The translations under genes and the position numbers were made by a program. From positions 2,816,001-2,880,000 of the forward strand of contig OY761614.1 in NCBI GenBank assembly GCA_963664825.1: a stretch of 64,000 nt of DNA, in the 5' to 3' direction. The notes beneath the pieces were generated by a model. It searched no databases and was not told where the DNA came from. It saw nothing but the letters and a program-made list of their open reading frames with translations. This stretch comes from an uncultured Holophaga sp. Lineage in GTDB: Bacteria > Acidobacteriota > Holophagae > Holophagales > Holophagaceae. Shown here piece by piece: positions 23,356 through 24,973 of this stretch; within the stretch, counting starts at the first letter, position 1, and every line of letters begins with the position of its first letter.

Positions 23356-23988
23356 ATGGCCATTGAATTCACCATCCTGGGGCGGGGCCGCGCGGGGCGC
23401 GCCCTGGCGGCGGCCTGGGGCGACCGTGTGGCGCTGACATCCCACGAGGGCTCTCCAGGAGGCTGGGTGCTGCTGGCCGTGCCCGACGCCGCCGTGGAAG
23501 ACCTCGCCTCGAAATTCCAGGGCCGCTGCGTTCACCTGAGCGGCAGCCTTCATCTGGAGGGGGTGCCCTGCGCCCACCCTCTCACTAGCTTCGATGGGGA
23601 GGCCCGGGATTGGCGGGGCACACCCCTGGCCGTGACAGGGGAACTGCCCCTGGGGATCCGCACGGCCTTCGAGGCCCTCGGTTTTATGCCCTTCGTCTTG
23701 CCGGCGCACCTGAAGCCTCTCTACCACGCATGCGCCGTGCTCAGTTCGGGCCATGCCGCCAGTCTCTGGGTCGGCGCCGCCAGGCTTTTGGAGGAGGCGG
23801 GTGTGGCCTTGCCGGGCCGGGGGTTTCTGCCCCTGGCGGAAGCGACCCTCCGCAATGTGGCCGAGAAGGGCGCCGAGGGACGCACAGGCCCCTTCGGGAG
23901 GAAGGACGAGGCCACCATCGGGCGGGACGCGGAGGCTCTGCCTGCCGAATGGCGGGAGATTTTCCTGCGCCTGGGGAGAATGATTTGA
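23356..23988 (+). CDS. Rossmann-like / DUF2520 domain protein
   Basis: GRGRAG, LAVPD, HLSGS, HPL, YHACAV, TGP. Confidence 0.85.
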   Translation: MAIEFTILGRGRAGRALAAAWGDRVALTSHEGSPGGWVLLAVPDAAVEDLASKFQGRCVHLSGSLHLEGVPCAHPLTSFDGEARDWRGTPLAVTGELPLGIRTAFEALGFMPFVLPAHLKPLYHACAVLSSGHAASLWVGAARLLEEAGVALPGRGFLPLAEATLRNVAEKGAEGRTGPFGRKDEATIGRDAEALPAEWREIFLRLGRMI

Positions 23989-24170
23989 ATCCACTGGATT
24001 GGGATTTGGGGAATATCCCTCCGGGCATCGCCTGGGGCGGCGTCGATGGGGGGTCCCGCTCCGCGATCCAGGGCCGAAGGGCCTGGGAGTGGGAGGACGG
24101 CCCGGTGGGCCGTCCGTTCGCGGGCCGCCCAGTGCTTCATCCCGCCGCCCCTGCCTGGAGGCTGAATTGA
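23985..24170 (+). CDS. Possible 61-aa leader ORF starting with the duplicated RnhB N-terminus
   Basis: GGGGAG SD; TTG overlaps the upstream stop (TTGA); its stop overlaps the rnhB TTG. Confidence 0.35.
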   Translation: MNPLDWDLGNIPPGIAWGGVDGGSRSAIQGRRAWEWEDGPVGRPFAGRPVLHPAAPAWRLN

Positions 24171-24230
24171 ATCCATTGGATTGGGATTTAGGAAATATCC
24201 CACCGGGCATCGCCTGGGGCGGCGTCGATG
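23985..24230 (+). repeat. Direct repeat of the rnhB first 64 nt (23985-24048 and 24167-24230) flanking a structured insert
   Basis: 60/64 identical; all four differences synonymous. Confidence 0.95.
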
Positions 24231-24973
24231 AAGCCGGCCGGGGCGCCTGGGCGGGGCCGGTGGTGGCCGCCTGTGCGGTGCTGGATCCGGCTTCGGTCCA
24301 GCGCTGGAGTCACGTGCTGCGCGGCGCCAGGGATAGCAAGAAGCTCAGCCCCGAGCGCCGGGAGGCTCTCGCCTCCGAACTCAGGGTCGTGCTCCCGGCC
24401 TGGTCCGTGGCCGTCATCGATAACCTCGCCATCGACCGGGAAAATATCCTCCAGGCCACTCTCCAGGCCATGCGACAGGCTGTGTCCAGTCTGGAGGTCC
24501 GGCCCAGGATCCTCTTCGTGGACGGGGATCGCGCCCCCCGCACGGGGCTGCCGGAGCGATTGTTGGTGGAGGGCGATGCCCTCAGCTGCGCGGTGGCCTG
24601 TGCCTCTATTTTGGCCAAGACCCACCGGGACGCGCTCATGCGGGAGCTCGATGCCCAGTATCCCGACTATGGCTTCGCCAAGCACAAGGGATACGGTACG
24701 CCGGAGCACAGCCGGGCCCTGAAGGCCCTGGGAGCCTGTGCCGTGCATCGCATCACCTACGGGCCCGTGGCCGCCCTCCTGCGCCCGGATCCCGCCCTGA
24801 GGGAGGCCCTGATGGCCTCCCTGGAGGCCTGCTCGGATATCCCCGGGATGCAATCCTGGGTGGAGACGGCGCTGAAGCCTGCCTATGGGCGCCTTTCGGC
24901 GGCCTGGGTGGAGGCCCTGCGGGATCGTTACGCCGAAAGGCTCGCCGGATTTGCCGTCGCGGGAAACGCATGA
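24167..24973 (+). CDS. rnhB: Ribonuclease HII with C-terminal extension
   Basis: GVDEAGRGAWAGPV, RDSKKL, VDG, ASILAK, YGFAKHKGYGT; GGAGG SD before TTG. Confidence 0.95.
   Translation: MNPLDWDLGNIPPGIAWGGVDEAGRGAWAGPVVAACAVLDPASVQRWSHVLRGARDSKKLSPERREALASELRVVLPAWSVAVIDNLAIDRENILQATLQAMRQAVSSLEVRPRILFVDGDRAPRTGLPERLLVEGDALSCAVACASILAKTHRDALMRELDAQYPDYGFAKHKGYGTPEHSRALKALGACAVHRITYGPVAALLRPDPALREALMASLEACSDIPGMQSWVETALKPAYGRLSAAWVEALRDRYAERLAGFAVAGNA

What the first reader, a model, noticed from the sequence alone, without database searches (positions are those of the whole stretch)
23985..24230. Mini-cassette at the rnhB catalytic D|E that supplies a synonymous second N-terminus and keeps translational coupling
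Seen in sequence: the first 64 nt of rnhB occur twice (23985-24048, 24167-24230). All four differences are synonymous (CTG/TTG, TTG/TTA, GGG/GGA, CCT/CCA), with the downstream functional copy using the more AT-rich codons. The first copy breaks between the D and E codons of the DEAGRG motif. Its TTG overlaps the upstream gene's stop, and its frame runs 61 codons to a TGA overlapping the real rnhB TTG, which has its own GGAGG. The 118-nt spacer folds: TCCCGCTCC/GGAGTGGGA around a GAA hairpin, plus a perfect 9-bp stem at 24095-24115. Established: integrative elements often restore their target with a variant fragment, and homing elements favour catalytic motifs. Inference: this is a remnant or non-autonomous element targeting rnhB, or a domesticated leader-peptide cassette. 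A neutral duplication would not be expected to collect only synonymous changes, although n is just 4.
Basis: partly seen in the sequence, partly recalled or inferred. Interest (0 to 1): 0.85.

Follow-up and report, generated by a model that had tools for sequence, protein, structure and literature searches.

The report
Self-guided mini-insert that repairs gene ends
This is one copy of a tiny mobile DNA piece that inserts near the ends of many different bacterial genes, carries a short built-in sequence matching each landing site plus a spare copy of the gene end it breaks, and may point to an undescribed programmable DNA-insertion enzyme.

Summary
The repeat is real but not rnhB-specific. 24049-24230 is a 182-bp insert: a three-way-junction scaffold, a short antisense 'guide' to the intact rnhB junction (GATG|AAGC), a ribosome site and a replacement N-terminus; removing it gives the same protein. 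The genome holds 15 strong copies, 13 beside their own duplicated target end; 82 of 101 family genomes (Holophagaceae, inferred) carry it, at 37 different genes. In 103 of 104 units with a gene call the carried piece is the working gene end. A guide of 7+ nt spans the junction at 24 of 56 target sequences versus 3.6% shuffled, and follows host base changes outside the unit at five targets. Insertion ignores codon phase, so 'targets the catalytic motif' and 'leader peptide' fall; coupling is kept at rnhB and miaB only. Best reading: non-autonomous elements moved as folded single-stranded DNA, guide-directed, IS608-like in logic but failing IS200/IS605, REP, IS110 and attC tests. No enzyme was found; excision is not shown. 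No earlier scan note describes it.

The parts
23356..23988 (+). Upstream DUF2520 gene; its TGA overlaps the TTG of the stranded copy
   Evidence: Pfam PF10728 E 2.6e-19; sequence
23985..24048 (+). Stranded host copy of the rnhB 5' end (copy 1); left flank of the insertion
   Evidence: family-wide the identity of the two copies drops from 0.98 to 0.26 across this junction (131 units)
24049..24230 (+). The inserted unit, 182 bp = scaffold + guide + ribosome site + replacement N-terminus
   Evidence: removing it gives the same 268-aa protein; same unit in G004, G006 (182 bp) and G021 (188 bp)
24049..24129 (+). Structured scaffold: P0 (24049-24050 with 24128-24129), GGGN bulge, P1 (24055-24059 with 24120-24124), variable arm P2 (24060-24093, C-GAA-G loop), P3
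   Evidence: covariance model hit 75.8 bits; 91.3% of cells paired, 16 of 24 pairs with changes on both sides in 17 sequences; P0 paired in 114 of 131 units
24095..24115 (+). P3: 9-bp stem with 3-nt loop closed by C-G; length fixed, sequence covaries; inferred protein-binding hairpin
   Evidence: 97.4% paired; in pattern-scan loci the four unconstrained pairs are all Watson-Crick in 61 of 74 distinct sequences
24134..24141 (+). Core guide GCTT|CATC, antisense to the intact target junction GATG|AAGC (24227-24234)
   Evidence: sequence; unchanged in all four rnhB units
24143..24161 (+). Guide extension: CGCCGCCCC antisense to 24034-24042 / 24216-24224, then TGCCTGGAGG, an inverted copy (one G-T) of 24018-24027 that also supplies the GGAGG ribosome site
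   Evidence: sequence; folds; origin by inverted copying is inference
24167..24230 (+). Replacement rnhB 5' end carried by the unit (copy 2, the working start)
24167..24973 (+). rnhB, ribonuclease HII, 268 aa from TTG
   Evidence: Pfam PF01351 E 1.2e-34; NCBIfam NF000595 over cut-off
23985..24170 (+). 61-codon frame from copy 1 through the scaffold, stop overlapping the copy 2 start; by-product that preserves coupling
   Evidence: no Pfam family; frame open to the same overlap in 4 of 4 units, tail residues not conserved

Best explanation
The 182-bp unit is one member of a family of non-autonomous, self-guided miniature insertion elements. SHOWN: each unit is a conserved fold, then a short sequence antisense to the intact target across the insertion point, then (where needed) a copy of the gene end that it displaces, so the host gene survives. 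INFERRED: the top strand folds while single-stranded; an enzyme supplied in trans binds P3/P1; the guide splints the two host flanks, so that strand transfer at the foot of P0 and at the end of the carried piece seals the empty gene and frees a small circle; in reverse the guide picks the same junction in an empty allele. New targets would arise when a scaffold lying just outside a gene gains a guide to a site inside it and excises with the DNA between, which explains why only N-termini in sense and C-termini in antisense are captured. The chemistry is most likely that of an HUH (IS608-like) or tyrosine-recombinase strand transfer. My odds: mobile family 0.93; guide sets the site 0.7; DNA rather than RNA substrate 0.6; HUH-type enzyme 0.4.
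For: 15 strong copies in this genome, 13 beside a duplicated target end; 82 of 101 family genomes, 987 matches; 143 of 193 scaffolds have the duplicate within 620 nt. Sharp common junction. Polarity rule 103 of 104. Guide: 35 of 56 distinct target 8-mers have 6+ nt and 24 of 56 have 7+ nt perfect antisense spanning the junction, against 10.3% and 3.6% shuffled and 10 and 4 of 56 on the sense strand; the signal peaks at the inferred cut. The guide changes with host bases that lie outside the unit at mutL, queE, recR, prfA and yebC. Filled and empty rnhB sites, patchy across genera (4 of 133 genomes). Tandem whole units and tandem scaffolds. Copy differences 204 synonymous, 84 non-synonymous, 1 stop in 2049 codons: two working alleles, recent stranding. 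C-GNA-G triloops in 100 of 140 P2 arms; that such loops are especially stable in DNA is recalled, not tested. IS608 uses DNA guides on single-stranded targets, and an engineered 8-nt extension 3' of its hairpin adds target pairing (PMC5934647, passages).
Against: No enzyme: no Y1, Y2 or integron-integrase ORF in 272 scaffold loci (1.22 Mb) or in 62 more; the three recombinase hits are a truncated fused fragment, a gene 6 kb away, and a Xer-like gene that is itself a target. This genome has no Y1 transposase, TnpB or reverse transcriptase match. No replication-strand bias, 7 versus 7 loci, although IS608-type elements use the lagging-strand template (PMC6006769, abstract start). 21 of 56 targets lack a 6-nt guide, and the guide does not follow the host at the thioesterase, one clpB unit or the ABC permease. 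The 56 sequences include alleles of the same targets, so they are not independent. The triloop count had no shuffled control and 49 of 140 arms can also be read with a GNRA tetraloop. The scaffold also sits inside a group II intron RNA. No excision joint or circle was seen (contigs only).
Confidence: 0.6

Rival explanations
1. Same mobile family, but moved by a tyrosine recombinase such as the resident integron integrase acting on the folded strand (attC-like), the guide forming the bottom strand of a 6-8 bp exchange region.
For: Integron integrase over cut-off in 64 of 101 family genomes, including this one, and in none of the 8 genomes of two element-free genera. Typical guide length 6-9 nt. 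The base before P0 equals the target base in 86% of units.
Against: The integron here has ordinary attC sites unlike the scaffold; no model hit near 30 intI loci; junctions have no GTT core; several element-free genomes have intI and several element-rich ones lack it.
Confidence: 0.17
2. An RNA-level retroelement: the transcript folds, pairs with the target and is inserted by reverse splicing or by a reverse transcriptase borrowed from group II introns.
For: Scaffold inside domain I of group II introns in 3 genomes of another family; G-U-type pairs and GA tandems suit RNA too; 35 of 57 C-terminal units have a convergent neighbour against 31% background.
Against: Relative to the Rfam consensus the scaffold is an insertion in those introns, as it is in IS91-type transposase remnants and repeat elements; no RVT_1 match in this genome; no Rfam ribozyme match; 22 of 57 C-terminal units have no upstream gene transcribed toward them.
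Confidence: 0.1
3. Eroded ends of ordinary integrative elements (attL/attR remnants) whose integrase genes were deleted; the antisense piece only closes the fold.
For: Targets such as ychF, icd, dusB and tRNA 3' ends are known integrase sites (recalled); carrying a replacement gene end is standard for such elements (recalled).
Against: One scaffold at 37 genes with unit sizes clustered at 120-320 bp and no long version among 193 scaffolds; no match in viral contigs, phages or plasmids; guide pairs with host bases outside the unit.
Confidence: 0.08
4. A domesticated regulatory leader for rnhB: the 61-codon frame and the switchable pairing of the guide with copy 1 or copy 2 tune RNase HII expression.
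For: Coupling kept in 4 of 4 rnhB units and 8 of 11 miaB units across four unit lengths; the guide can pair with either copy.
Against: Only 4 of 133 genomes have it; most family members are antisense at C-termini; the peptide tail is not conserved.
Confidence: 0.05

Closest known systems
IS200/IS605 family (IS608, ISDra2; HUH Y1 TnpA)
   Same: Target chosen by base pairing with a guide in the element's own DNA; hairpin-bearing ends; precise sealing of the donor; engineered IS608 gains specificity from extra pairing 3' of the hairpin (PMC5934647, passages).
   Different: One three-way scaffold instead of two end hairpins; guide 3' of the fold, 6-14 nt, spanning the cut, different for each target; no fixed target tetranucleotide; carries a replacement gene end; no tnpA; no lagging-strand bias seen.
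REP / BIME elements and TnpA-REP (RAYT)
   Same: Short multicopy structured elements without their own enzyme; tandem arrays.
   Different: REPs are mostly extragenic with a fixed GT[AG]G at the 5' foot of one hairpin (PMC6006769, passages); these enter genes at guide-matched sites and restore them; no Y1 gene is flanked by the scaffold.
IS110 / IS1111 bridge-RNA elements
   Same: Programmable target recognition by a 150-250 nt structured nucleic acid with three helices; scarless excision.
   Different: Bridge RNA guides sit in internal loops and pair with opposite strands of the target (PMC11208160, passages); here one contiguous guide pairs with one strand, there is no donor loop and no recombinase.
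Integrative elements and prophages that restore their target gene (recalled)
   Same: Replacement N- or C-terminus with synonymous differences; conserved housekeeping targets.
   Different: 120-320 bp, no integrase, one scaffold for dozens of targets.
Multicopy sequences of Geobacter metallireducens (PMC2700814)
   Same: A described family has a central palindrome of similar size with a 3-nt loop; found between and within genes.
   Different: Described as possible regulatory RNAs; in the passages, section 14 and legends that I read no guide or gene-end replacement is mentioned; its alignments were not seen, so kinship is untested.

Membership tests
IS200/IS605 | Y1 HUH transposase encoded or at hand | tested here: not met
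   No PF01797 match in this genome or with my own profile; 19 of 101 family genomes have one, no scaffold in their 30 loci
IS200/IS605 | Fixed tetranucleotide target paired to a guide 5' of an end hairpin | tested here: not met
   Only a weak R-S-S bias before the cut; guide lies 3' of the fold and differs by target
IS200/IS605 | Target chosen by pairing with element DNA | tested here: inconclusive
   Statistical and compensatory support; no biochemical test
IS200/IS605 | Lagging-strand-template bias | tested here: not met
   7 versus 7 loci in one complete genome; small sample
IS200/IS605 | Single-stranded circular intermediate | not testable with these tools
   Only assembled contigs were available
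REP/RAYT | GT[AG]G at the 5' foot of a single hairpin, extragenic | tested here: not met
   GTAG occurs only in one subclass and 3' of P1; 104 of 121 duplicated units interrupt a called gene
REP/RAYT | tnpA-REP gene flanked by the repeats | tested here: not met
   0 of 30 Y1 loci hold the scaffold; very divergent RAYTs could be missed
IS110/IS1111 | Guides in internal loops pairing with opposite target strands; donor-binding loop | tested here: not met
   Contiguous antisense guide outside the loops; sense-strand control 4 of 56 at 7+ nt
IS110/IS1111 | DEDD recombinase in the element | tested here: not met
   One IS110 gene in the genome, far from any scaffold; no hit in 262 loci
Integron cassette (attC) | RYYYAAC...GTTRRRY ends, crossover at G|TT | tested here: not met
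   Junction bases vary freely; ordinary attC sites exist separately at the integron
Group I/II intron or known ribozyme | Rfam catalytic domains; splicing makes the upstream copy the working one | tested here: not met
   No Rfam match to the unit; the carried downstream copy is the working one and 70 of 104 are antisense
Target-restoring integrative element | Carries a replacement gene end | tested here: met
Target-restoring integrative element | Integrase gene and cargo between attL and attR | tested here: not met

The most novel reading that the evidence does not exclude
These units are the substrates of an undescribed natural DNA-guided insertion system: one scaffold recruits one enzyme, and a short in-cis DNA guide that pairs across the cut has been reprogrammed by evolution to dozens of gene ends, with the element capturing whichever gene end it needs. 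The related long-hairpin and tRNA-linked mirror forms that share the P3 hairpin would belong to the same system.
Probability: 0.45. Interest if true: 0.95.

Novelty: categorically new. Interest (0 to 1): 0.85.

Why it matters
If the guide sets the site, this is a naturally reprogrammed insertion system with a much longer and freer target code than IS608's four bases, using DNA rather than an RNA guide; the enzyme would be a candidate for site-specific integration without double-strand breaks. Even without the enzyme, it describes an overlooked class of about 10 tiny inserts per genome that sit in the ends of core genes (mutL, ruvB, ruvC, recR, prfA, metK, rnhB), swap alleles of those ends and confuse start-codon calls. 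I class it as categorically new because it failed a defining test of every family tried; if a divergent HUH transposase proves to be the mover it would drop to a new variant of the IS200/IS605-REP kind.

Tried and rejected
Enzyme hunts that led nowhere: Y1, reverse transcriptase, TnpB, IS110, tyrosine recombinases, integron integrase, IS91-type Y2 (the weak extra hit is an amidohydrolase); genes near scaffolds that this genome lacks showed no recurrent enzyme. L387, a recombinase fragment beside a clpB unit, is truncated, fused to the repeat and on a 1.4-kb contig: not counted. Viral contigs (two patterns, 0 hits), phages (0) and plasmids (7 weak partial hits, E 0.05-0.7, rejected). Replichore bias: none. 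Transcription dependence: convergent neighbours are enriched but operon-end tolerance explains it. The first genome-wide repeat census was swamped by CRISPR and protein repeats and its output was cut. No RNA holder listed; contig depths were not used. Rfam: no family. Earlier-findings look-ups returned one unrelated note. Ten paper searches found no description of this family; the library lacks most subscription papers. The type B pattern was not scanned in viral contigs. No structure or complex prediction was run, as there is no candidate protein.

Full report
Observation. The 64-nt repeat, its four synonymous differences, the 118-nt spacer, the overlaps with the DUF2520 stop and with the rnhB start, and the 9-bp stem are all as described. 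The shared sequence ends one base into the Glu codon. Removing 24049-24230 leaves a gene that encodes the same 268-aa protein. A second sample's contig covers 23988-24287 without a difference and a contig from another study covers 24036-24186 with 7 differences, so misassembly is excluded; the contig that spans the whole stretch may be this DNA's source and is not counted.

Relatives at rnhB. Of 25 genomes of the family (this one included), 4 have the unit at the same base, 20 have an empty site and 1 is cut by a contig end. A DNA search of 133 family genomes found the rnhB unit in the same 4 only; the other 26 genomes with a match hold the scaffold part alone. Three carriers are close (39-51 differences in 300 downstream bases), the fourth, of another genus, is far (92-102), so the unit has probably crossed genera once (inference). 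Copy 1 differs from its own copy 2 at 0-5 of 61 bases and from other genomes' copies at 5-14; all 12 within-genome differences are synonymous.

It is a family. BLAST of the spacer against the genome gave weak hits that each proved to lie between two copies of another gene end. Profile searches and a covariance model built from 17 sequences found 15 strong copies here; 13 lie beside a duplicated target end (thioesterase, ABC ATPase, rnhB, ychF, an acetyltransferase, rimO, a MacB-type permease, ruvB, a CobC-like phosphatase, metK, ruvC, and a tandem pair at the start of tRNA-Arg) and 2 do not. The model hits 82 of 101 family genomes with 987 matches, 3 of 141 other genomes of the phylum, and 7 of 81 genomes around a MAG labelled Anaeromyxobacter, itself included. 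The 41 target proteins that I scanned are 37 different genes; 38 of 41 had an NCBIfam match.

Anatomy. In element orientation: stranded host piece | P0 (2 bp) - GGGN - P1 - P2 (variable arm) - P3 (9 bp, 3-nt loop) - P1' - P0' - linker, in one subclass with an extra hairpin module - guide - carried piece | rest of target. On the 17-sequence alignment 91.3% of cells pair and 16 of 24 pairs change on both sides; slid controls give 33-49% (the structure came from these sequences). An independent check: in loci found by patterns that left four P3 pairs free, 61 of 74 distinct sequences pair at all four and 10 at three. Of 193 distinct scaffolds, 143 have the duplicate within 620 nt, mostly 140-200 nt on; none has a long cargo; many of the other 50 are tandem copies, contig ends or mis-anchored. 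In 131 units the two copies are 98% identical up to 8 bases before P1, 86% at 7 and 26% at 6, which fixes the junction; P0 pairs in 114.

Polarity and selection. Of 121 distinct duplicated units, my gene caller covered the junction in 104 (17 dropped, among them the four rnhB units): 33 are N-termini in sense and 70 C-termini in antisense with the gene end inside the unit; 1 had a start call outside (a dusB unit). So the piece 3' of the scaffold is always the working one. Junction phases are 49, 31 and 24. Between copies there are 204 synonymous and 84 non-synonymous codon differences and 1 stop in 2049 codons. The frame from copy 1 ends on the start of copy 2 in 4 of 4 rnhB units, 8 of 11 miaB units (all 11 have lengths of 2 modulo 3) and 1 of 5 queE units, and ends earlier in mutL, the thioesterase and two others.

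The guide. At rnhB, GCTTCATC (24134-24141) is the reverse complement of GATG|AAGC, half of which lies outside the unit; pairing continues after a bulge and runs into the ribosome site. Over 56 distinct target 8-mers, 35 have 6+ and 24 have 7+ contiguous Watson-Crick pairs across the junction, against 10.3% and 3.6% for shuffled pairings and 10 and 4 of 56 for the sense strand; moving the assumed cut by 1, 2 or 3 bases lowers the fraction from 0.52 to about 0.44, 0.34 and 0.21. These sequences include alleles of the same targets. In 13 target groups examined, host bases 3' of the cut vary in step with the guide at mutL, queE, recR, prfA and yebC (one variant genome each), do not at the thioesterase, one clpB unit and the ABC permease, and are invariant or uninformative in the rest.

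Mechanism. The geometry puts the left junction at the foot of P0, next to a guide that can hold the left and right host flanks as one duplex: a splint for sealing the empty gene, and in reverse a reader of the target strand (inference). A scaffold outside a gene that gains a guide to an inner site would capture the gene end on excision, which predicts the polarity rule (inference). A DNA substrate is suggested by C-GNA-G triloops in 100 of 140 P2 arms (no control; their stability in DNA is recalled) and by antisense units that no mRNA of the target contains; it is weakened by the lack of replichore bias (7 versus 7) and by the scaffold's presence in a group II intron. The mover was not found: see Tried and rejected. 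Bare scaffolds also interrupt IS91-type transposase remnants and repeat elements, so not every insertion is repaired.

What is known. IS608: DNA guides 5' of end hairpins pair with a fixed tetranucleotide; an engineered 8-nt extension at the 3' base of the hairpin adds specificity (PMC5934647, passages). REPs: fixed tetranucleotide at a hairpin foot, mostly between genes (PMC6006769, passages and abstract start). IS110 bridge RNA: loop guides on opposite strands (PMC11208160, passages). Geobacter multicopy sequences (PMC2700814, passages, section 14, one unrelated supplement; a search of its supplements found nothing and left 6 of 19 files out): the unseen alignments may bear on kinship. Structured-RNA survey (PMC2864571, passages): lists Acidobacteria motifs that are in Rfam, which gave no match here. 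Ten searches found no account of this family; other listed papers were seen as search listings only.

Verdict. Observation confirmed; interpretation partly supported. A real, widespread, apparently undescribed family of guide-bearing miniature inserts; targeting by the guide is well supported by comparison but not shown by experiment, and the enzyme is unknown. Interest 0.85.

Noticed in passing
G000:C1 833012(+), 976984(+), 2735879(+), 2810979(+), 688260(-), 2712447(+) (L263-L268): A second architecture: one long irregular hairpin tipped by the same P3, again between two copies of a gene end (mutL start, an ABC permease end, tRNA-Leu 3' end and others).
   Followed up: partly
G000:C1 tRNAs at 321186, 1859025, 2149013, 2678076, 2942444, 3266316, 3438939: Terminator, then an 11-18 nt or longer antisense copy of the T-arm, a structured segment, several with a P3-like hairpin, and in some a stranded tRNA 3' piece: mirror order to the main family. 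No Rfam match in the two of these loci scanned.
   Followed up: partly
L031:4954-8090: Two such tRNA-Met hairpins bracket 2.9 kb of cargo (a transposase-like ORF, IS256-type by recalled motif, and a membrane-like ORF), like a cassette array at a tRNA.
   Followed up: no
L238:1434-1789, L241:1318-1673, L245:1434-1671: Group II introns without a visible ORF (L245 looks truncated) that carry the scaffold as an insertion in domain I.
   Followed up: partly
L451:1502-1580, L459, L456:175-258: Bare scaffold without duplication inside IS91-type transposase remnants; Pfam confirms the zinc domain in L451 only.
   Followed up: partly
G000:C1:829800-833000 (L263): Broken IS91-like element (tyrosine recombinase plus Y2 transposase) and a PD-(D/E)XK (GxxExxY) gene between two copies of a 130-nt palindromic repeat, directly upstream of mutL.
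   Followed up: no
G000:C1:2534000-2539880 (L270): Chromosomal integron with ordinary attC sites; intI over cut-off in 64 of 101 family genomes.
   Followed up: partly
L002 (G006), upstream of copy 1: Copy 1 is preceded by a second scaffold tail with guide and ribosome site, a remnant of a tandem unit or of gene conversion.
   Followed up: no
L415, L425, L427: Units whose P1 3' strand itself supplies the ribosome site or start codon of the next gene.
   Followed up: no
G000:C1 from 469681; from 3050900: A CRISPR array (61-nt period) and a long pentapeptide-repeat gene.
   Followed up: no
target list: Many targets are DNA repair or recombination genes (ruvB, ruvC, recR, mutL at both ends, rnhB, YoaA-like and XPB helicases, a Xer-like recombinase, ftsK); no enrichment test was run.
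   Followed up: no
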